Assembly: GCA_964016885.1 (NCBI GenBank)
Contig: OZ024754.1
Location: forward strand, 34,286,001-34,350,000
Length of the DNA: 64,000 nucleotides
Reading direction: 5' to 3'
Source of the DNA: Eledone cirrhosa
Lineage: Eukaryota
Positions 6,535 through 50,219 of this stretch are shown one piece after another; within the stretch, counting starts at the first letter, position 1; each line of letters starts with the position of its first letter. A model generated the notes under the pieces. The model had not been told where the DNA came from and searched no databases. It saw only the letters and a list, made by a program, of their open reading frames with translations. Made by a program: the position numbers and the translations under genes.

Positions 6535-9500
6535 CTGACAGCCTAGCATGTGACAACCTCTCTAGTGTTGGTGTCACAATATAACACATCCAGTAATCTG
6601 GCCTAGCATGTGACAACCTCTCTAGTGTTGGTGTCACAATATAACACATCCAGTAGTCTGGCCTAGCATGTGACAACCTCTCTAGTGTTGGTGTCACAAT
6701 ATAACACATCCAGTAGTCTGGCCTAGCATGTGACAACCTCTCTAGTGTTGGTGTCACAATATAACACATCCAGTAGTCTGGCCTAGCATGTGACAACCTC
6801 TCTAGTGTTGGTGTCACAATATAACACATCCAGTAGTCTGGCCTAGCATGTGACAACTTCTCTAGTGTTGGTGTCACAATATAACACATCCAGTAATCTG
6901 GCCTAGCATATGACAACTTCTCTAGCGTTGGTGTCACGATAAAACACATCCAGTAATCTGGCCTAGCATGTGACAACCTCTCTAGTGTTGGTGTCACAAT
7001 AAAACACATCCAGTAATCTGGCCTAGCATGTGACAACTTCTCTAGTGTTGGTGTCACAATAAAACACATCCAGTAGTCTGGCCTAGCATGTGACAACCTC
7101 TCTAGTGTTGGTGTCACAATATAACACATCCAGTAGTCTGGCCTAGCATGTGACAACTTCTCTAGTGTTGGTGTCACAATATAACACATCCAGTAGTCTG
7201 GCCTAGCATGTGACAACCTCTCTAGTGTTGGTGTCACAATATAACACATCCAGTAGTATGGCCTAGCATGTGACAACTTCTCTAGTGTTGGTGTCACAAT
7301 ATAACACATCCAGTAGTCTGGCCTAGCATGTGACAACCTCTCTAGTGTTGGTGTCACAATATAACACATCCAGTAGTCTGGCCTAGCATGTGACAACTTC
7401 TCTAGTGTTGGTGTCACAATATAACACATCCAGTAGTCTGGCCTAGCATGTGACAACCTCTCTAGTGTTGGTGTCACAATATAACACATCCAGTAGTATG
7501 GCCTAGCATGTGACAACTTCTCTAGTGTTGGTGTCACAATATAACACATCCAGTAGTATGGCCTAGCATGTGACAACTTCTCTAGTGTTGGTGTCACAAT
7601 ATAACACATCCAGTAGTCTGGCCTAGCATGTGACAGCTTCTCTAGTGTTGGTGTCACAATATAACACATCCAGTAGTCTGGCCTAGCATGTGATAACCTC
7701 TCTAGTGTTGGTGTCACAATATAACACATCCAGTAATCTGGCCTAGCATGTGACAACTTCTCTAGTGTTGGTGTCACAATATAACACATCCAGTAGTCTG
7801 GCCTAGCATGTGACAACCTCTCTAGTGTTGGTGTCACAATATAACACATCCAGTAGTATGGCCTAGCATGTGAAAACCTCTCTAGTGTTGGTGTCACAAT
7901 ATAACACATCCAGTAGTATGGCCTAGCATGTGACAGCTTCTCTAGTGTTGGTGTCACAATATAACACATCCAGTAGTCTGGCCTAGCATGTGAAAACCTC
8001 TCTAGTGTTGGTGTCACAATATAACACATCCAGTAGTATGGCCTAGCATGTGACAGCTTCTCTAGTGTTGGTGTCACAATATAACACATCCAGTAGTCTG
8101 GCCTAGCATGTGACAGCTTCTCTAGTGTTGGTGTCACAATATAACACATCCAGTAGTCTGGCCTAGCATGTGACAACCTCTCTAGTGTTGGTGTCACAAT
8201 AAAACACATCCAGTAGTCTGGCCTAGCATGTGACAACTTCTCTAGTGTTGGTGTCACAATAAAACACATCAAGTAGTCTGGCCAAGCATGTGACAACTTC
8301 TCTAGTGTTGGTGTCACAATATAACACATCCACTAGTCTGGCCTAGCATGTGACAACTTCTCTAGTGTTGGTGTCACAATATAACACATCCAGTAGTATG
8401 GCCTAGCATGTGACAACTTCTCTAGTGTTGGTGTCACAATATAACACATCCACTAGTCTGGCCTAGCATGTGACAACTTCTCTAGTGTTGGTGTCACAAT
8501 ATAACACATCCAGTAGTATGGCCTAGCATGTGACAACTTCTCTCGTGTTGGTGTCACAATATAACACATCAAGTAGTCTGGCCAAGCATGTGACAACCTC
8601 TTTAGTGTTGGTGTCACAATAAAACACATCCACTAGTCTGGCCTAGCATGTGACAACCTCTCTAGTGTTGGTGTCACAATATAACACATCCAGTAGTCTG
8701 GCCTAGCATGTGACACCCTCTCTAGTGTTGGTGTCACAATATAACACATCCAGTAGTCTGGCCTAGCATGTGACAACCTCTTTAGTGTTGGTGTCACAAT
8801 ATAACACATCCAGTAGTCTGGCCTAGCATGTGACAACCTCTCTAGTGTTGGTGTCACAATATAACACATCCAATAGTCTGGCCTAGCATGTGACAACTTC
8901 TCTAGTGTTGGTGTCACAATATAACACATCCAGTAGTCTGGCCTAGCATGTGACAACCTCTCTAGTGTTGGTGTCACAATAAAACACATCCAGTAGTCTG
9001 GCCTAGCATATGACAACCTCTCTAGTGTTGGTGTCACAATATAACACATCCAATAGTCTGGCCTAGCATGTGACAACTTCTCTAGTGTTGGTGTCACAAT
9101 ATAACACATCCAGTAGTCTGGCCTAGCATGTGACAACCTCTCTAGTGTTGGTGTCACAATATAACACATCCAGTAGTCTGGCCTAGCATGTGACAACTTC
9201 TCTAGTGTTGGTGTCACAATATAACACATCCAGTAGTCTGGCCTAGCATGTGACAACTTCTCTAGTGTTGGTGTCACAATATAACACATCCAGTAGTCTG
9301 GCCTAGCATGTGACAACCTCTCTAGTGTTGGTGTCACAATATAACACATCCAGTAGTCTGGCCTAGCATGTAACAACTTCTCTAGTGTTGGTGTCACAAT
9401 ATAACACATCCAGTAGTCTGGCCTAGCATGTGACAACCTCTCTAGTGTTGGTGTCACAATATAACACATCCAGTAGTCTGGCCTAGCATGTGACAACCTC

Positions 9501-11450
9501 TCTAGTGTTGGTGTCACAATATAACACATCCAGTAGTCTGGCCTAGCATGTGACAACCTCTCTAGTGTTGGTGTCACAATATAACACATCCAGTCGTCTG
9601 GCCTAGCATGTGACACCCTCTCTAGTGTTGGTGTCACAATATAACACATCCAGTAGTATGGCCTAGCATGTGACAACCTCTCTAGTGTTGGTGTCACAAT
9701 ATAACACATCCAGTAGTCTGGCCTAGCATGTGACAACCTCTTTAGTGTTGGTGTCACAATATAACACATCCAGTAGTCTGGCCTAGCATGTGACAACCTC
9801 TCTAGTGTTGGTGTCACAATATAATACATCCAGTAGTCTGGCCTAGCATGTGACAACCTCTCTAGTGTTGGTGTCACAATATAATACATCCAGTAGTCTG
9901 GCCTAGCATGTGACAACCTCTTTAGTGTTGGTGTCACAATATAACACATCCAGTAGTCTGGCCTAGCCTGTGACAACCTCTTTAGTGTTGGTGTCACAAT
10001 ATAACACATCCAGTAGTCTGGCCTAGCATGTGACAACCTCTCTAGTGTTGGTGTCACAATATAACACATCCAGTAGTCTGGCCTAGCATGTGACAACTTC
10101 TCTAGTGTTGGTGTCATAATATAACACATCCAGTAGTCTGGCCTAGCATGTGACACCCTCTTTAGTGTTGGTGTCACAATAAAACACATCCAGTAGTCTG
10201 GCCTAGCATGTGACAACCTCTTTAGTGTTGGTGTCACAATAAAACACATCCAGTAGTCTGGCCTAGCATGTGACAACCTCTTTAGTGTTGGTGTCACAAT
10301 AAAACACATCCAGTAGTCTGGCCTAGCATGTGACAACCTCTTTAGTGTTGGTGTCACAATAAAACACATCCAGTAGTCTGGCCTAGCATGTGACAACCTC
10401 TTTAGTGTTGGTGTCACAATAAAACACATCCAGTAGTCTGGCCTAGCATGTGACAACCTCTTTAGTGTTGGTGTCACAATAAAACACATCCAGTAGTCTG
10501 GCCTAGCATGTGACAACCTCTTTAGTGTTGGTGTCACAATAAAACACATCCAGTAGTCTGGCCTAGCATGTGACAACCTCTTTAGTGTTGGTGTCACAAT
10601 AAAACACATCCAGTAGTCTGGCCTAGCATGTGACAACCTCTTTAGTGTTGGTGTCACAATAAAACACATCCAGTAGTCTGGCCTAGCATGTGACAACCTC
10701 TTTAGTGTTGGTGTCACAATAAAACACATCCAGTAGTCTGGCCTAGCATGTGACAACCTCTTTAGTGTTGGTGTCACAATAAAACACATCCAGTAGTCTA
10801 GCCTAGCATGTGACAACCTCTCTAGTGTTGGTGTCACAATATAACACATCCAGTAGTCTGGCCTAGCATGTGACAACTTCTCTAGTGTTGGTGTCACAAT
10901 ATAACACATCCAGTAGTCTGGCCTAGCCTGTGACAACCTCTTTAGTGTTGGTGTCACAATATAACACATCCAGTAGTCTGGCCTAGCATGTGACAACCTC
11001 TTTAGTGTTGGTGTCACAATATAACACATCCAGTAATCTGGCCTAGCATGTGACAACTTCTCTAGTGTTGGTGTCACAATATAACACATCCAGTAGTCTG
11101 GCCTAGCATGTGACAACTTCTCTAGTGTTGGTGTCACAATATAACACATCCAGTAATCTGGCCTAGCATGTGACAACTTCTCTAGTGTTGGTGTCACAAT
11201 ATAACACATCCAGTAGTCTGGCCTAGCATGTGACAACCTCTTTAGTGTTGGTGTCACAATATAACACATCCAGTAGTCTGGCCTAGCATGTGACAACCTC
11301 TTTAGTGTTGGTGTCACAATAAAACACATCCAGTTGTCTGGCCTAGCATGTAACAACTTCTCTAGTGTTGGTGTCACAATATAACACATCCAGTAGTCTG
11401 GCCTAGCATGTAACAACTTCTCTAGTGTTAGTGTCACAATATAATACACC
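6535..11450. repeat. 60-bp tandem satellite, about 82 copies, in EIF1AD intron 2
   Basis: Unit GCCTAGCATGTGACAACCTCTCTAGTGTTGGTGTCACAATATAACACATCCAGTAGTCTG repeats in exact 60-nt register with point variants only. Confidence 0.98.
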
Positions 11451-11614
11451 CTGTAAAGTGGTATAAAACTGGGGCTATGATAAAACACACCCAGTCCACT
11501 CTGTAAAGTGGTATTGAGTTTCAACAATGCTATAGAAAAGAAAATTCAACAATTTAGCTTGGAGAATGAAGATTACAGTTAATTTTAATCTTTCAATTTT
11601 GATTTTTTTTTTAG

Positions 11615-17911: not shown

Positions 17912-18252
17912 TTTCATCATCATTTCATTTTACGTCCGCTTTTTCCCTGCTTGCAAGGGTGAGACGGGAATTGGTTCTGGCTTGATTTCTACAGCTGGAT
18001 GCCCTTCCTAACACCAACCTCATTTACAGTGAGTGCTGGGTGCTTTTTTGCCGTGGCACCTCCACGACCACTTTGCAGTGGAGTGATAGGGAACCCAGTC
18101 CCTATCATCTCATTTCTACAGCTGAGTAAACTGGAGCAATGTGAAATAAAGTGTCTTGGTCAAGGAAACAACACATCACCCGGTCTGAGAATTGAACTCA
18201 CAACCTTTTGATTGCAAAGCCAATGCTCTAACCACTAAGCCATGTGCCTCCA
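17912..18252 (-). mobile_element. Family-B SINE, full length
   Basis: tRNA-like head ggaggcacatggcttagtggttagagc...gagttcaattctc, CORE-like body and (ATG)n tail. Confidence 0.8.
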
Positions 18253-18265
18253 TATATATATATAT

Positions 18266-18430
18266 CTCAACTAGAAATTGATTGACATATATATATATCT
18301 CTAAAATAAACATATGAAACAATCACAGGGAATAATTTGTAAAAGTGTGTACTTTTACAAATTATTTCCTGTGATTGTTTCATATGTTTATTTTAGATAT
18401 ATATATATATGTCATTCAATTTCCAGTTGA
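18266..18430. repeat. Near-perfect palindrome, about 80-bp arms and 4-nt loop
   Basis: ...gaataatttgtaaaagt GTGT acttttacaaattatttcc..., centre 18347-18350. Confidence 0.9.
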
Positions 18431-24819: not shown

Positions 24820-26299
24820 CTAAGAGTTAGGGTCAAGGTATAATCTATAAAAAGAATTCTTTATATAGCCATAATACAATTGTTATTTGTATTCAATCAA
24901 ACATAATCCCAATGAAACTATAAGCTGATTCTAAAATATAACTCAAACATAATCTTTTTTAAACAGCTGGCTTCGTCCAGAGGGTGTCTTCAGCAAATTG
25001 TTGACTTTGTTCAATGTTTCACTTTATTCTGTTGTTAGTTTTATGTATAACTATACATAGTTTTATACATAACAATCTAACAGTCAGTAAAACTATAAAT
25101 TTAAAGGAAATCTTCATTTCTAAAATTATGTGTGTAATCATCAATCTTTTAAAGAATGGGTCCAGTTTAGACTAGGTACATCGTATATCTGCATGTTGTA
25201 AAGGGTAACTAACTGTACTGAAAGACCATCCAGTTGTAAAACATTGTCTCAAAAGTGACCCCATGCTGAGTATATCCCTGTCATGGCATCTGCAAGTTAA
25301 CTGTTTCAGCAAGGAAAATAGCCTGAAAATGTTTGTTGTTCTTATCTAAAATACATCTACTATAAATCTGATGTATTCAGTCATCCACTTATGACTGCAG
25401 CATTCAGCCAGTCAAAAGTTGTCAGATTATATCCAAATTTTCATGGCTGTTTCCACCCTAAATTACAATGCCCTGCAGTTGGGGTGTCTGTAGGGATGGC
25501 CAATCACTGCCCTTTTTCTCCAAGCTTTCTGCTGGGCTCCTCATGCCTCTACCAAAGTTAACAAGATCCTTTTGCTTTGCTACAAAGCAAGTGCCTTCCC
25601 CTCTAATCTTAGATTGACAAAAAGAAAAAACTTAGTAAGTGTAATTTAGTAGATAAAAACACTGTGGAAGATTATGTATATATGAAGGCACATGGCTTAG
25701 TGGTTAGAGCATTGGGCTTGCAATCGAAAGGTTGTGAGTTCAATTCTCAGACCGGGTGATGTGTTGTTTCCTTGAGCAAGACACTTTATTTCACGTTGCT
25801 CCAGTTTACTCAGCTGTAGAAATGAGATGATAGGGACTGGGGTCTATATCATTCCACTGCAAAGTGGTCGTGGAGGTGCCACGGCAAAAAAAGCACCCAG
25901 CACTCACTGTAAATGAGGTTGGTGTTAGGAAGGGCATCCAGCTGTAGAAATCAAGCCAGAATAAGTTCCCGTCCCACCCTTGCAAGCAGGGAAAAGCGGA
26001 CGTAAAGTGATGATGATGATGATGATGATGATGATACACACACGTATGGACATGTGATATGCATGGATGATGATTGCTGAGTGAAGAAACGCCAGGAAAT
26101 CTCAGTGGAAGAAAGCTGCAATAGAAGAAGACCTGGGCAGAGGTGGTGAGAGCTAATCTCAAATTGCTGAGACTCACAGAGGAGATGACAAAGGACCGCA
26201 ATGAGTGGAAGGATGCTGGAGAGGATATATCCAAGCATGAGAAAGCAGATATAATGATAATGATAATGATGATGATGATATATATATATCCTTATATAT

Positions 26300-27467: not shown

Positions 27468-28177
27468 CTATAACGTGGAAATAGAAACAATAGAAATATC
27501 AAAATAGATTTTAAAAAACACCCAGTACACACTGTAAATGTGGTAGGCATTAGAAGGGTATCCAGCCATAGAAACTTAGCCAGAAACAGTTCTATATGAG
27601 CAAAACACAGTCACCTGACCCAACTTTCCTCTAATGGGACAACCTGTCTAACCCATGCTAGCATGAAATATGGACATTAAACAATGTTGATGGCGATGAT
27701 GATGATGATGATAAACTCTCACAACATTATTCTACATCTCAACATTCAATAGTGGATTTTGACCAAATATCGCAATAAGGTAGCAAATTGTAAGAGTTGT
27801 TAGCACATTGGATAGAATGCTTTCTGGTGTTCGTCCAGCTTTCATGTCTCTGAGTTCAAATCCCACACAAGTCAACTTTGCCTTTCATCCATTTGAGGTT
27901 GATAAAAAAAGTAACAGTCCAATATTGAGGTTGATTTTTCCTCTATATCTCTTTCTCACTTCTTTTCTCTCACTCTATCCTTCTCTGGAAGAAATCTGAT
28001 AAATTCAGACCTGGGAAAGAGATGGGTTCCACCAGGTTTTAAAATTTATATACACATTTATGCAGTCTTGGTTACTTCTGTTATGTATATATATATATAC
28101 AGATATAACTTTATCATATACTTCAGTTGTTTAGTTAAGACACACACACACACTCACATATACATATATATATATAT

Positions 28178-28371
28178 AACGAAGGAAATGTGGTAAGGAA
28201 CCAGGTGGACCATAACGCACCAAAGTACTCAATACTTAGGGTAGTAGAGTGGGTAATAGGAACGAGTGGGACCCCGACGGCTGAGCTCAAGCCGTTTCGA
28301 CGGCTAATTCTGGACCAAATTAGCCGTCGAAACGGCTTGAGCTCAGCCGTCGGGGTCCCACTCATTCCTAT
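28178..28371 (+). repeat. Leader-plus-palindrome element, copy 1
   Basis: About 80-nt leader, then 54-bp arms (28256-28309 / 28318-28371, one mismatch) around ctggacca. Flanked by (TA)n. Confidence 0.9.
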
Positions 28372-28423
28372 ATATATATATATATATATAGTTAAAAGAA
28401 TAGAGGTGTAACACACAAGTTAT

Positions 28424-28965
28424 TATATATTGGTAAACGGAATAGAAAATGCTGACAAATTGTTCACAGTTGAAAAATGGTTTAATTAGGAATAAAAGAG
28501 TATTAGTGATTGTATGGGTTAGTATTCAGTTGTGGTTTTAAGTTTTTAAGTTTTTACCGGTTGCGCATTTCTAAATGCTTTTCAAAAATAATTTTGAGAT
28601 AGAGTGTCCGTGCTGTTTGCTCTGATCAGAGCAAACAGCACGGAGTATTAGTGATTGTATGGGTTAGTATTCAGTTGTGGTTTTAAGTTTTTACCGGTTG
28701 CGCATTTCTAAATGCTTTTCAAAAATAATTTTGAGATAGAGTGTCCGTGCTGTTTGCTCAGATCAGAGCAAACAACACGGACACTCTATCTCAAAATTAT
28801 TTTTGAAAAGCATTTAGAAATGCGCAACCGGTAAAAACTTAAAAACTTAAAACCACAACTGAATACTAACCCATACAATCACTAATACTCTTTTATTCCT
28901 AATTAAACCATTTTTCAACTGTGAACAATTTGTCAGCATTTTCTATTCCGTTTACCAATATATAT
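28424..28965. repeat. Compound palindrome, about 200-bp arms with the centre duplicated in tandem
   Basis: Centre CTGA|TCAG at 28625/6, repeated at 28762/3. About 28499-28644 is duplicated. 28763-28965 is the reverse complement of 28424-28625. Confidence 0.9.
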
Positions 28966-29238: not shown

Positions 29239-30309
29239 CTAGAATTTTAAAAATAAATTGTAAAAGAATCACCAAACATGAATAATCTGAATACGTATCA
29301 TCATCATCATCATCATTCTCATCATTTCACATCTGGGTTTTTTTCTATGTTTGCATTGGTTGGATATGATGATGATGTTGATGACAAAGATGATGATAAC
29401 GATGATGGTGATGATGAGGTTGACGATGATGATGATGATGATGATGATGACAATGATGACATTTACTTTTTTATTCAATAAATGAGAGAATTTCTGATTA
29501 TTTTAAAACTGTAATAATATTATTTTTATAATAATAATGAAATTATTGTGTAGTGCCCAGGTAAAGCACCTAGCTACATCCTTTGGCACTCCAGTGTGTC
29601 ATGATACACAGCTTAAACACCACTGCCCTACCACCTTAACCCTTTTGATACCAACTCTGGTTCTATGAAACAAAACCACTCATTTTAAAGGGTTCCAATC
29701 TAAATTAAAATTTTCCAACATAATTTTATATAAGAACCAAATTAACTAATTAATTGAAATACAGTGTATTTCATTAAAAGTAAGGCAATGAAAGAGTTAA
29801 ATGTAGTTACATTGCATAACAAGCTGACCTGTGACTAAAAAACAACAACTATTGACTTCTGATGTAAATTATTTCCATACCCAACATAATTAATCAAAAG
29901 TTGGTGACAGAGTTAAGAGGTTAAAGAGTTTATATCACAGTGTGAGAGGTTAATGTGAAAAATCACTGGAAAAAACACTGAAGCTATCTCAAGTGTCATT
30001 CTTAATTAGTGGAAAGGCTATCAACAGTTACATTAATGAAGCTGGCAGTTGATTTAATGAGGATAGTTTGTTTTCAGGTTAACCTTGGCTTCAAGCCAAC
30101 AACGAAGTCTAGATGAACATTCAACAAAACATTTTTAAAATACCTTTCTTATCTTTGCATTTATTTAATTTACAACATACACTAAGGTCGCCTCTACATT
30201 GTATGAATAAAATGTATTGTTCCTATTTGTAATTAGCTTTTGTGAAGTACAAAACAGCACTACAACTGCATGATATTAAGATGTGAAGTCTTTAATCTAA
30301 TATTGAGAA

Positions 30310-31939
30310 CTACTGACAGTTGAACCAGGGATCTCTGGGTAATTGTGGTATTACTGACAGTTGAACCAGGGATCTCTGGGTAATTGTGGTATTACTGACA
30401 GTTGAACCAGGGATCTCTGGGTAATTGTGGTATTACTGACAGTTGAACCAGGGATCTCTGGGTTATTGTGGTATTACTGACAGTTGAACCAGGGATCTCT
30501 GGGTAATTGTGGTATTACTGACAGTTGAACCAGGGATCTCTGGGTAATTGTGGTATTACTGACAGTTGAACCAGGGATCTCTGGGTTATTGTGGTATTAC
30601 TGACAGTTGAACCAGGGACCTCTGGGTAATTGTGGTATTACTGACAGTTGAACCAGGGATCTCTGGGTAATTGTGGTATTACTGACAGTTGAACCAGGGA
30701 TCTCTGGGTAATTGTGGTATTACTGACAGTTGAACCAGGGATCTCTGGGTTATTGTGGTATTACTGACAGTTGAACCAGGGACCTCTGGGTAATTGTGGT
30801 ATTACTGACAGTTGAACCAGGGATCTCTGGGTAATTGTGGTACTACTGATAGTTGAACCAGGAATCTCTGGGTTTTTGTGGTATTACTGACAGTTGAACC
30901 AGGGATCTCTGGGTTATTGTGGTACTACTGACAGTTGAACCAGGAATCTCTGGGTTATTGTGGTATTACTGACAGTTGAACCAGGAATCTCTGGGTTATT
31001 GTGGTACTACTGATAGTTGAACCAGGGATCTCTGGGTTATTGTGGTACTACTGATAGTTGAACCAGGAATCTCTGGGTTATTGTGGTACTACTGATAGTT
31101 GAACCAGGGATCTCTGGGTTATTGTGGTACTACTGATAGTTGAACCAGGGATCTCTGGGTTATTGTGGTACTACTGACAGTTGAACCAGGAATCTCTGGG
31201 TTATTGTGGTACTACTGATAGTTGAACCAGGAATCTCTAGGTTATTGTGGTACTACTGACAGTTGAACCAGGGATCTCTGGGTTATTGTGGTACTACTGA
31301 TAGTTGAACCAGGGATTTCTGGGTTATTGTGGTACTACTGATAGTTGAACCAGGAATCTCTGGGTTTTTGTGGTATTACTGACAGTTGAACCAGGGATCT
31401 CTGGGTTATTGTGGTACTACTGATAGTTGAACCAGGGATCTCTGGGTTATTGTGGTACTACTGATAGTTGAACCAGGAATCTCTGGGTTTTTGTGGTACT
31501 ACTGACAGTTGAACCAGGAATCTCTGGGTTATTGTGGTACTACTGATAGTTGAACCAGGAATCTCTGGGTTTTTGTGGTATTACTGACAGTTGAACCAGG
31601 GATCTCTGGGTTATTGTGGTACTACTGATAGTTGAACCAGGGATCTCTGGGTTATTGTGGTACTACTGACAGTTGAACCAGGAATCTCTGGGTTATTGTG
31701 GTATTACTGACAGTTGAACCAGGGATCTCTGGGTTATTGTGGTACTACTGATAGTTGAACCAGGAATCTCTGGGTTTTTGTGGTACTACTGATAGTTGAA
31801 CCAGGAATCTCTGGGTTATTGTGGTACTACTGATAGTTGAACCAGGGATCTCTGGGTTATTGTGGTACTACTGACAGTTGAACCAGGGATCTCTGGGTTA
31901 TTGTGGTACTACTGATAATTGAACCAGGAATCTCTGGGA
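30310..31939. repeat. 41-bp tandem satellite, about 40 copies
   Basis: Unit TACTGACAGTTGAACCAGGGATCTCTGGGTAATTGTGGTAT, in coding intron 1 of the FAM194 gene. Confidence 0.97.
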
Positions 31940-32004
31940 TAGAACTGGTTAAAAAGAATGTTCAGAATTAATCTCAGTAAAAACTTAAAGCAGAAAACAA
32001 TGTT

Positions 32005-35327: not shown

Positions 35328-35516
35328 AACAAAAAGGGTGTGGTAAGACACCAAGTGGACCATAACGCACCAGAGTACTCGATACTTGGGGAGATAGAGT
35401 GGGTAATATGAAGAGATTCAGGTCCCCGACAGCTGAGCTCCGGCCGTTTTGACAGCTAGATCCGATCTAGCTGTCGAAACAGCCGAAGCTCAGCTGTCGG
35501 GGTCCTGAATCTTTTC

Positions 35517-35520
<4 letters not shown>
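35328..35520 (+). repeat. Leader-plus-palindrome element, copy 2
   Basis: Leader similar to copy 1 (tgtggtaag...gtggaccataacgcacca.agtactc.atactt...tagagtgggtaata). Arms 35406-35462 / 35464-35520. (TA)n flanks. Confidence 0.88.
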
Positions 35521-44619: not shown

Positions 44620-46310
44620 ACTTTCACTACTAGCAAGAGTTGGTCTACCTGTCACTACTAACAAGGGCTGGTCTACCTTTCATTACTAGTAAGGGTTGGT
44701 CTACCATTCACTACTAGCAATGGTTGGTCTAACTTTCACTACTAGCAAGAATTAGTCTACCTGTCACTTCTAGCAAGGCTTGGTCTAACTTTCACTGCTA
44801 GCAAGGCTTGGTCTAATTTTCACTACTAGCAAGGCTTGGTCTAACTTTCACTGCTAGCAAGGCTTGGTCTAACTTTCACTGCTAGCAAGGCTTGGTCTAC
44901 CTTTCACTGTTAGCAAGGGTTGGTCTAACTTTCACTGCTAGCAAGGCTTGGTCTACCTTTCACTGCGAGCAAGGCTTGGTCTAACTTTCACTACTAGCAA
45001 GGCTTGGTCTAACTTTCACTACTAGCAAGGCTTGGTCTACCTTTGACTGCGAGCAAGGCTTGGTCTAACTTTCACTGTTAGCAAGGGTTGGTCTACCTTT
45101 CACTGCGAGCAAGGCTTGGTCTAACTTTCACTGCTAGCAAGGCTTGGTCTACCTTTCACTGTTAGCAAGGGTTGGTCTACCTTTCACTACTAGCAAGGCT
45201 TGGTCTAACTTTCACTACTAGCAAGGCTTGGTCTACCTTTGACTGCGAGCAAGGCTTGGTCTAACTTTCACTACTAGCAAGGCTTGGTCTACCTTTGACT
45301 GCGAGCAAGGCTTGGTCTAACTTTCACTGTTAGCAAGGGTTGGTCTACCTTTCACTGCGAGCAAGGCTTGGTCTAACTTTCACTGTTAGCAAGGGTTGGT
45401 CTACCTTTCACTGTTAGCAAGGGTTGGTCTACCTTTCACTGTTAGCAAGGGTTGGTCTACCTTTCACTGTTAGCAAGGCTTGGTCTAACTTTCACTGTTA
45501 GCAAGGGTTGGTCTACCTTTCACTGTTAGCAAGGGTTGGTCTACCTTTCACTGTTAGCAAGGGTTGGTCTAACTTTCACTGTTAGCAAGGGTTGGTCTAC
45601 CTTTCACTGCGAGCAAGGCTTGGTCTACCTTTCACTGCGAGCAAGGCTTGGTCTAACTTTCACTGTTAGCAAGGGTTGGTCTACCTTTCACTGCGAGCAA
45701 GGCTTGGTCTACCTTTCACTGTTAGCAAGGGTTGGTCTACCTTTCACTGTTAGCAAGGGTTGGTCTACCTTTCACTGTTAGCAAGGGTTGGTCTAACTTT
45801 CACTGTTAGCAAGGGTTGGTCTACCTTTGACTGCGAGCAAGGCTTGGTCTAACTTTCACTGTTAGCAAGGGTTGGTCTACCTTTCACTGCGAGCAAGGCT
45901 TGGTCTACCTTTCACTACTAGCAAGGCTTGGTCTACCTTTCACTGTTAGCAAGGCTTGGTCTACCTTTCACTGCTAGCAAGGCTTGGTCTACCTTTCACT
46001 GTTAGCAAGGGTTGGTCTACCTTTCACTGTTAGCAAGGGTTGGTCTACCTTTCACTGTTAGCAAGGGTTGGTCTACCTTTCACTGTTAGCAAGGCTTGGT
46101 CTACCTTTCACTGTTAGCAAGGGTTGGTCTACCTTTCACTGTTAGCAAGGGTTGGTCTACCTTTCACTGTTAGCAAGGGTTGGTCTACCTTTCACTGCTA
46201 GCAAGGCTTGGTCTAACTTTCACTGCGAGCAAGGGTTGGTCTACCTTTCACTGTTAGCAAGGGTTGGTCTACCTTTCACTGTTAGCAAGGGTTGGTCCAA
46301 TACCTTTCAC
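44620..46310. repeat. 28-bp tandem satellite, about 60 copies, in the MRPL14 intron
   Basis: Unit CTTTCACTGTTAGCAAGGGTTGGTCTAC with GCG/ACT/GCT and GGC/GGG variants. Confidence 0.97.
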
Positions 46311-47072
46311 TAATTAGTACCAACTTCCTATGTTCTGAGTTCAAATCCTACTCAGGTGACTTTGCCTTTCATTTGTCCAGTGTCAATAAGCTAACTTGGT
46401 CATGCACTGGGATCACTTCAATATATTCCTCATAAAAGGTGACTAGAAGGACATCTAGCCATAAAATATTGCCTCATAAAGAACTCCATGATCAGTATGA
46501 AGCCTGTCATAGGCTTATAAAACTGACCCCTACTTTAGGTTCGCAGGTAAATTGACTTAAAATGTTTTGTTGTTGTTGTGTGCTTATGTGCAAAAAACAT
46601 TGTTAATATCATTAGGGTTGGAAGAGGGTTGTTGTGGGTATCAGATAAAATTCTTAGTAGTATTTAATGCTCCTTTACACTATTACTTCATCTCACACTG
46701 AAGTCAGCTTTGCTTTTCATCCTTTCAAAATCAATAAAATAAATACCAATCAATCTCTCCACATTCCTTTGTCGTCTCCTCTATGAGATTCAGGAATTTG
46801 AGATCGATCAGCTCTCACTATCTCTGCTCAGGGCTTCCTGGCACTTCTTCACCTAGTGATCATCATCCATGCACATGTCCATACTAATGCAGTCTTCTCT
46901 CTTGCACATCACTTCGGATTCCTCTTAAACCCAGCTCCTTTAGCTCATCCAAGCTCTTTCTTTCCCTTACATTTACATTGCAGTAAAAAGAAAAAGAAAC
47001 AAATGTTAATTAAAATTTTATTAAAAAAGGATTTTTTTCAAATGAATTTGTTTATATTAATCTCTTTTTCAG

Positions 47073-48084: not shown

Positions 48085-48220
48085 AAATATATTAGGGAGT
48101 TTGGGCTCGATGGTTGAGCTCTTGCCATTTCAACAGCAAGAGCTCAGCTGTCAGGCTCTGACTCTAATATATTTATACTCTATTTTAAATATCAAGTACT
48201 CTACTGTCTTACTAGTTTAA
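48085..48220 (-). repeat. Leader-plus-palindrome element, copy 3 (diverged, inverted)
   Basis: Palindrome around ccatttcaacagc with gagctc arms. The reverse complement of 48170-48218 gives tagtaagac...agagtacttgatattt...tagagt, matching the leader. Confidence 0.6.
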
Positions 48221-50183: not shown

Positions 50184-50219
50184 TCTTCTGATGAAGGACT
50201 AGTGCCTGAAACGTTAAGA
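50184..50219 (+). ncRNA. Minimal type I hammerhead ribozyme motif (Penelope-like)
   Basis: TCTT-CTGATGA-AGG(actagtg)CCT-GAAA-CG-TT-AAGA gives intact core boxes, 3-bp stem II, palindromic ACGT stem III and 4-bp stem I. Confidence 0.6.

What the first reader, a model, noticed from the sequence alone, without database searches (positions are those of the whole stretch)
28178..28371. Palindromic element whose arms each read as half of a hammerhead ribozyme
Seen: an 80-nt leader is followed by a 54-bp-arm hairpin. The right arm reads aattagccgtc-GAAA(28329-32)-CGGCT-tgagctc-AGCCG-TC(28351)-ggggtccc. Established: this order (stem II 3' strand, GAAA, stem III ACGGCT/AGCCGT, GUC triplet, stem I 3' strand) is the cleaved half of a type I hammerhead. 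The left arm keeps both partner strands (gggacccc and gacggctaatt), but where CUGANGA would sit it has the reverse complement of GAAA-stemIII-GUC. Both DNA strands therefore encode the substrate half and neither encodes the CUGANGA half. Inference: a retrozyme/Penelope-type hammerhead was symmetrised by template switching and then spread as a family, or the element is a substrate for a trans-acting partner. I do not recognise this architecture as described.
Basis: partly seen in the sequence, partly recalled or inferred. Interest (0 to 1): 0.78.

Follow-up and report, generated by a model that had tools for sequence, protein, structure and literature searches.

The report
Half-ribozyme hairpin from Penelope-like retroelement
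The hairpin is one of at least 18,000 short head-to-head stubs of a Penelope-like jumping gene whose full copies carry a complete but unusual hammerhead-ribozyme motif, and the stubs likely all stop mid-ribozyme because the element's RNA begins there.

Summary
The hairpin and the half-hammerhead reading are real. The missing half exists: longer relatives carry helix I, a variant core (mostly UUGANAA, U3:A8; 5,266 exact hits, control 0; canonical CUGANGA in 15 of 71 G8 hits), a long covarying helix II, GAAA, a 5-6 bp helix III and GUC. They sit in the pseudo-LTR of an RT/GIY-YIG Penelope-like element with Hydra-clade motifs. The window element is the usual PLE insertion in miniature: two 5'-truncated copies head to head in (TA)n, one with the 78-nt tail (45 of 45 pairs). 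At least 18,167 such hairpins exist, with 35 of 35 sampled apexes different, so they are made anew at each insertion, not spread from one symmetrised master; no trans partner is needed. The unusual part is a truncation hot spot: 71 of 119 arms end within 14 nt in helix II, at a conserved TTAGT, some with an extra G. Best reading: run-off cDNAs from an RNA 5' end inside the ribozyme (inferred). Cleavage and RNA ends were not testable. The scan noted similar PLE fold-backs in other genomes.

The parts
28164..28177 (.). (TA)n target microsatellite, left flank
   Evidence: all 30 top copies flanked by (TA)n on both sides
28178..28255 (-).
   Evidence: tail lies between two RT start sites in PMC11167929
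28256..28315 (-). Tail-bearing arm: 3' half of the hammerhead read on the minus strand (helix II 3' strand, GAAA 28298-28295, helix III, GUC 28278-28276, helix I 3' strand); reaches 6 nt past AATTAGCC
28310..28317 (.). Apex: head-to-head joint of the two 5'-truncated arms, at the family's truncation hot spot in helix II
28318..28371 (+). Tail-less arm: helix II 3' strand 28318-28328, GAAA 28329-28332, helix III 28332-28350, GUC 28349-28351, helix I 3' strand 28352-28356; outer end = second inferred RT start site
28372..28390 (.). (TA)n target microsatellite, right flank
35328..35518 (+). Second hairpin of the same family, older subfamily (78% identical), same tail + inverted arms, different apex

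Best explanation
The element is a non-coding insertion of two 5'-truncated copies of the pseudo-LTR of an RT/GIY-YIG Penelope-like retroelement with Hydra-clade motifs, joined head to head in (TA)n, and it likely arises when the element's enzyme primes cDNA from both target strands at two start sites and both cDNAs end about 6-11 nt into helix II, likely because the template RNA begins there. Shown: parent element, complete hammerhead motif in its pLTR, one tail arm plus one tail-less arm, (TA)n targets, new apex in each copy, hot spot. Inferred from PMC11167929: nicking of both strands and two internal RT start sites. Inferred: the two cDNA ends are joined by short microhomology or small insertions; the hot spot is an RNA 5' end (a start site at TTAGT inside the ribozyme), so that the element's linear RNA opens with a half ribozyme, while long tandem copies come from a template continuous through the ribozyme (circle or read-through). 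The hairpin itself cannot be a complete ribozyme.
For: Long relatives join the arm to core and ORF; 21 of 30 copies of the ORF 5' end have the ribozyme-bearing pLTR plus tail upstream, and L152 is a window-like hairpin fused to the ORF. 45 of 45 inverted pairs are tail + tail-less; partner arms more alike than shuffled pairs (42.6 vs 38.5, max 39.4); 35 of 35 short apexes distinct. 12 of 24 unpaired tail-less arms are joined to an inverted tail that lacks most or all of the arm, and head-to-head chimeras with other hammerhead/PLE families occur, as two separately primed cDNAs would give. 5' ends: 71 of 119 at -14..-1, 21 at +1..+27, 5 at -18..-45, 22 past the core; exact-match stop rate highest at -6 to -11; about 25-fold depth step at the same place in two public runs. 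For an RNA end: TTAGT conserved 0.97 against 0.68 for the rest of loop II; untemplated G against A before AGTCCAG 12:1 raw, 9:1 after hand curation; 663 poly(T) runs at this spot, control 0; 21 long copies pass the upstream ribozyme and only 1 stops at -6.
Against: Many arms run on 1-5 templated bases past -7 (A follows CTGGACT in 63 of the first 100 rows, C in 15, by hand count), so the end is a zone, not one base. TTAG can also pair with CTAA, so its conservation may be structural. The extra G is a small sample and some could be templated insertions. No RNA data: no listed run is on record as RNA. The 119 arms were sampled on an intact GTCGAAACRGC in the first 10 Mb of one chromosome. No peak at the predicted cut site could be shown (4 of 266 tail copies start at +34/+35; biased sample).
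Confidence: 0.9

Rival explanations
1. Same PLE origin, but the hot spot is a reverse-transcriptase stall in the long helix II (or a fold-back of one cDNA on helix II followed by apex deletion), not an RNA 5' end.
For: Helix II is long (9 bp plus a distal stem); ends spread over -1 to -14; poly(T) runs at a UUU could be stutter; some apexes keep the distal stem as a palindrome; self-priming was proposed for PLE palindromes (PMC3846280).
Against: 21 long copies pass a second copy of the same helix and 1 stops; only 5 of 119 arms end where fold-back on helix II would put them; neither arm is systematically longer (15:18:2); arms joined to partial tails cannot be copies of the tail arm; extra G.
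Confidence: 0.35
2. One reading: one hammerhead was symmetrised once and the hairpin spread as its own non-autonomous family.
For: High copy number and constant outer ends.
Against: Every sampled apex differs; hairpins exist in each subfamily of the long element; short:long ratio 223:11 in the window's subtype against 88,454:5,266 family-wide (patterns of unequal length).
Confidence: 0.05
3. The hairpin is a substrate for a trans-acting hammerhead half.
For: It holds the whole substrate half, and the enzyme half is abundant elsewhere.
Against: Read across both arms the motif is locked in a 54-bp duplex; GAAA and GUC are no better kept in copies (0.96, 0.94) than loop III or tail (0.94, 0.95, sample partly selected on the core).
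Confidence: 0.05
4. A class II MITE or foldback DNA transposon; the hammerhead likeness is chance.
For: Size and inverted repeat resemble a MITE; AGCCGT-CGAA-ACGGCT is itself a hairpin.
Against: Inverted repeats are not terminal, apex varies, and the arm is contiguous with a full hammerhead and an RT/GIY-YIG ORF.
Confidence: 0.01

Closest known systems
Insertion units of EN+ Penelope-like elements (pLTR, inverted 5'-truncated copy, one-sided tail; PMC8557442, PMC3846280, PMC11167929)
   Same: Head-to-head truncated copies, tail on one end only, AT-rich target, partial tandems upstream of the ORF, hammerhead in the pLTR.
   Different: Tail 78 nt instead of 30-40; most copies stop in one narrow zone inside the ribozyme, giving tens of thousands of near-uniform 190-nt hairpins.
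Hydra clade of PLEs (Craig et al. 2021, PMC8557442), including Hydra-1_Obim
   Same: C-terminal GIY-YIG, RW[R/K], DKT, CxCX5C linker, no CCHH, CxxC and CxH around E/N, (TA)n targets, hammerhead near the 3' end.
   Different: Unit about 3.7 kb (paper: generally under 3 kb). All 26 Hydra rows of its File S2 have CTGANGA, helix III of 3-4 bp and loop II of at most 10 nt; here U3:A8, helix III 5-6 bp with a 7-nt loop, about 33 nt inside helix II. The listed Hydra-1_oBim ribozyme is a different sequence.
PLE hammerheads of Cervera and de la Pena 2014 (PMC4209133)
   Same: Type I, U3-A8 core described in Schistosoma Cercyon elements; dual motifs on opposite strands 100-700 bp apart; long helix III in fungal/protist PLEs.
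   Different: Metazoan PLE motifs there are minimal, dimer-type; this one is predicted to fold as a monomer, and in young subfamilies has a rival fold because helices II and III share AGCCGUC.
Non-LTR retrozymes (PMC7229834 listing; bioRxiv 10.64898/2026.07.22.740005)
   Same: Short, non-coding, hammerhead-related, derived from PLE pLTRs.
   Different: Retrozymes are tandem and hold a complete ribozyme; these are dispersed inverted pairs lacking the catalytic 5' strand.

Membership tests
EN+ PLE insertion unit | Linked to an ORF with RT and GIY-YIG endonuclease | tested here: met
   Frames in L062, L066, L085 with YRDDG and VIY...YIG motifs; 402 relatives at E<=1e-20. Pfam, NCBIfam and PDB gave no hit.
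EN+ PLE insertion unit | Inverted 5'-truncated copy and tail at one end only | tested here: met
   45 of 45 pairs
EN+ PLE insertion unit | Partial tandem forming a pLTR upstream of the ORF | tested here: met
   21 of 30 ORF-5' copies (three are likely segmental duplicates)
Hydra clade | RWK-like, DKT, CxCX5C, no CCHH, CxxC and CxH around E/N, C-terminal EN | tested here: met
   Read from the L085 frame against the paper's list; RWR for RWK
Hydra clade | Insertion into (TA)n | tested here: met
   101 of 119 arm ends, 8 not, 10 undetermined; 30 of 30 top copies
Hydra clade | Canonical CUGANGA hammerhead and length generally under 3 kb | tested here: not met
   Variant core dominates; unit about 3.7 kb. 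Descriptive rather than diagnostic in the paper.
Hydra clade | Phylogenetic placement with named Hydra RTs | not tested
   Reference proteins were seen only as text in the supplement and compared by eye
Type I hammerhead (full pLTR copies) | Helices I, II, III around the core | tested here: met
   90.0% of 1,012 cells paired, slid controls 26-50%; three helix II pairs change on both sides; helices I and III show no two-sided change; fold is MFE or within 3.1 kcal/mol in 11 of 11 copies
Type I hammerhead (full pLTR copies) | Core N3-U-G-A-N7-N8-A, G10.1-C11.1, GAAA, NUH; 3:8 pair | tested here: met
   N7 is the variable position (0.43); 3:8 pair UA 35, UG 5, CG 2, unpaired 4 of 46; GUC in 53 of 58. 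C3.A8 mismatch in 30 of the first 100 hits.
Type I hammerhead (full pLTR copies) | Self-cleavage | not testable with these tools
   No assay; genomic footprint inconclusive
Type I hammerhead (window hairpin) | 5' catalytic strand present | tested here: not met
   Absent on both strands
Class II MITE | Terminal inverted repeats and a constant interior | tested here: not met
   One-sided tail, variable apex
Non-LTR retrozyme | Tandem units with a complete hammerhead | tested here: not met
   Dispersed inverted pairs

The most novel reading that the evidence does not exclude
This PLE starts transcription inside helix II of its own hammerhead, so its capped mRNA opens with a half ribozyme that cannot cut off the cap while the 3' pLTR holds the whole ribozyme; priming near that 5' end gives paired run-off ('strong-stop'-like) cDNAs, the hairpins, whereas long tandem copies come from circles or strand transfer through the 41-nt repeat between start site and cut site.
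Probability: 0.35. Interest if true: 0.65.

Novelty: new variant of a known kind. Interest (0 to 1): 0.42.

Why it matters
The hairpin itself is ordinary PLE debris. But tens of thousands of copies record both RT start sites and the template's 5' boundary at near base resolution, which makes an open question testable: what RNA PLEs copy and what their hammerhead does (PMC11167929 found cleavage dispensable in vitro). It also adds a metazoan PLE hammerhead that Rfam and CTGANGA descriptors miss, and warns that such hairpins can be mis-annotated as MITEs or SINEs.

Tried and rejected
CTGANGA within 8-38 nt of the arm: 79 heterogeneous hits, chance or chimeras; failed because the core is variant and about 50 nt away. 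Rfam: no hammerhead in window, hairpin or full copy. Pfam, NCBIfam, PDB: no hit for the ORF. First guess of Neptune clade dropped after reading the Hydra motifs. A first tail classifier was faulty (12 false tail-tail pairs) and was replaced. GAAA/GUC conservation test in copies uninformative. Cut-site footprint inconclusive. Sequencing runs: no RNA holder listed; contigs only, whose depth is no copy number. No PLE protein piece in the window itself. No earlier scan note on this sequence or genome. The host looks octopus-like from genome size and repeats; this is my guess, not tested, and it guided some paper searches.

Full report
Observation. The sequence is as described: 54-nt inverted arms at 28256-28309 and 28318-28371, a 78-nt one-sided extension, (TA)n on both sides, and a fold far beyond shuffles (z -17.6). 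The right arm reads AATTAGCCGTC, GAAA (28329-32), a hairpin closed by A-T, GTC (28351), GGGGT. The left arm is its reverse complement, so the 'partner strands' seen there are not independent evidence. Rfam gives no hammerhead.

Family. The window lies in a 3.0-Gb genome (G000). The best 40 matches are 97-100% identical; 30 of 30 examined are flanked by (TA)n and differ mainly at the apex. The arm 11-mer occurs 88,454 times (control 527) and a strict short-hairpin pattern 18,167 times (control 0). A second, older copy lies at 35328-35518.

The missing half. Reading upstream of arms in 40 ten-kb loci showed longer copies with ACCCC, YTGANAA, G, CGGCTA.., about 33 nt, then the arm. The pattern for this half has 5,266 hits (control 0), with all four bases at N7; 30 of the first 100 listed have C3 opposite A8. 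A G8 version has 71 hits, 15 of them canonical CTGANGA. An older subfamily pattern has 398. A descriptor recovered 58 complete motifs, 53 with GTC. On 46 aligned copies (46 of 68 candidates, dropping 19 that failed a completeness filter and 3 near-duplicates) 90.0% of cells pair, against 26-50% for slid controls; three helix II pairs and the 3:8 pair change on both sides, one of them CpG-type; helices I and III show no two-sided change. The hammerhead fold is the MFE in 4 of 11 copies and within 3.1 kcal/mol in all; in three young copies a rival fold with a GAA-loop hairpin has probability 0.56-0.81 because helices II and III share AGCCGUC. Activity is untested.

The parent. Long copies enclose RT and GIY-YIG frames in inverted arrangement (L062, L066, L085, L077). 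Of 30 copies of the ORF 5' end, 21 have the ribozyme and tail directly upstream, one (L152) is a window-like hairpin running on into the ORF, and the rest are joined closer to the ORF. The 710-aa L085 frame has 402 relatives but no Pfam, NCBIfam or PDB hit. Its motifs (RWR, DKT, CxCX5C, no CCHH, CxxC, CxH) match the Hydra clade of PMC8557442 (section 11), which targets (TA)n. That paper's table lists 26 Hydra ribozyme rows, all CTGANGA with short helix III, including a different octopus element. No tree was built.

How the hairpin forms. In 57 ten-kb loci chosen on the arm 11-mer, 119 arms were found. All 45 inverted pairs have one tail arm and one tail-less arm, partner arms resemble each other more than shuffled pairs, and all 35 short apexes differ. 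This is the described PLE unit (PMC8557442 passages; PMC3846280 passages). PMC11167929 (parts 1-2 of 4) shows that a PLE protein nicks and extends both strands and that the tail is the stretch between two internal RT start sites. Twelve of 24 unpaired tail-less arms are joined to an inverted tail lacking most or all of the arm, and some arms are fused head to head with other hammerhead-bearing or GIY-YIG-coding elements; both fit two separately primed cDNAs. In the window's own subtype there are 223 arms and 11 long copies, 7 of the 11 with CTGAGAA, so hairpins did not amplify apart from their parent.

The hot spot. Of 119 arms, 71 end at -14..-1 relative to AATTAGCC, 21 just inside the arm, 5 at -18..-45, and 22 pass the core (a few ends in old copies are alignment-limited). 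Exact matching of 140 arms puts the highest stop rates at -6 to -11. Contigs of two public runs of unknown kind drop about 25-fold or more at this place (summed depth, no copy number). Three clues favour an RNA 5' end over a stall: TTAGT there is conserved between subfamilies (0.97 against 0.68) and resembles an initiator (recalled, not tested); an untemplated G precedes AGTCCAG more often than A (12:1; 9:1 after dropping L139 and L168 and counting L259 once), as copying of a cap would give (recalled); and long cDNAs pass a second ribozyme 21 times and stop once. Against: many arms run a few templated bases further (A in 63, G 16, C 15, T 6 of the first 100 rows by hand count; 5,289 loci), TTAG can pair with CTAA, and 663 poly(T) runs fit either model. 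I put the PLE origin at 0.9 or above and the RNA-end step at roughly even odds with a stall.

Known and new. U3-A8 cores and opposite-strand motif pairs are reported for PLE ribozymes (PMC4209133, parts 1-2 of 4). A 2026 octopus repeat annotation does not mention hammerheads (PMC13282606 passages); a 2026 preprint links retrozymes to PLE pLTRs (abstract and passages; its supplements were not seen). Nine literature searches showed no description of this family, of half-ribozyme hairpins or of a start site inside a PLE hammerhead; the library lacks most subscription papers, and Repbase/Dfam could not be checked. Scan notes report similar PLE fold-backs in other genomes, unchecked. Verdict: a known kind of insertion from a likely undescribed Hydra-type family, with an atypical ribozyme and a sharp, testable truncation rule.

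Noticed in passing
window 28424-28964: Another (TA)n-flanked fold-back, 221-nt arms 99% complementary with a rearranged apex; relatives in at least 9 fetched loci. Possibly a stub of a different PLE family; no hammerhead seen.
   Followed up: partly
window 50187-50215: CTGATGA...GAAA minimal hammerhead-like motif next to a microsatellite.
   Followed up: no
window 48090-48190: Decayed inverted remnant resembling the same arm.
   Followed up: no
window 25669-26022 and 17914-18267: 356-bp repeat in two inverted copies with a tRNA-like head (Rfam tRNA 25693-25750); likely a tRNA-derived SINE.
   Followed up: no
window 6541-11456, 30309-31941, 44620-46312: Tandem arrays with 60-bp, 41-bp and 28-bp-based units.
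   Followed up: no
L032, L043, L058, L044, L035, L036 near 1500: Head-to-head chimeras between this family's arm and other hammerhead-bearing or GIY-YIG-coding elements, one joined at a shared CAGAAT in helix II; suggests joining of cDNAs from different PLE families.
   Followed up: partly
L002, L004, L010, L012, L022, L029, L035, L048 and others: Several further families with canonical CTGANGA hammerheads in (TA)n-flanked inverted elements: the genome is rich in PLE stubs.
   Followed up: no
L105, L106, L118, L119, L221-L229: A young subfamily, including the window's subtype, has C3 opposite A8, a mismatch in the ribozyme's core pair, yet multiplied; either cleavage is dispensable or A-to-I editing would supply a C-I pair (idea only).
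   Followed up: partly
L133, L160, L005, L127: Four copies begin at or one base from the predicted cut site; too few to call in vivo cleavage.
   Followed up: partly
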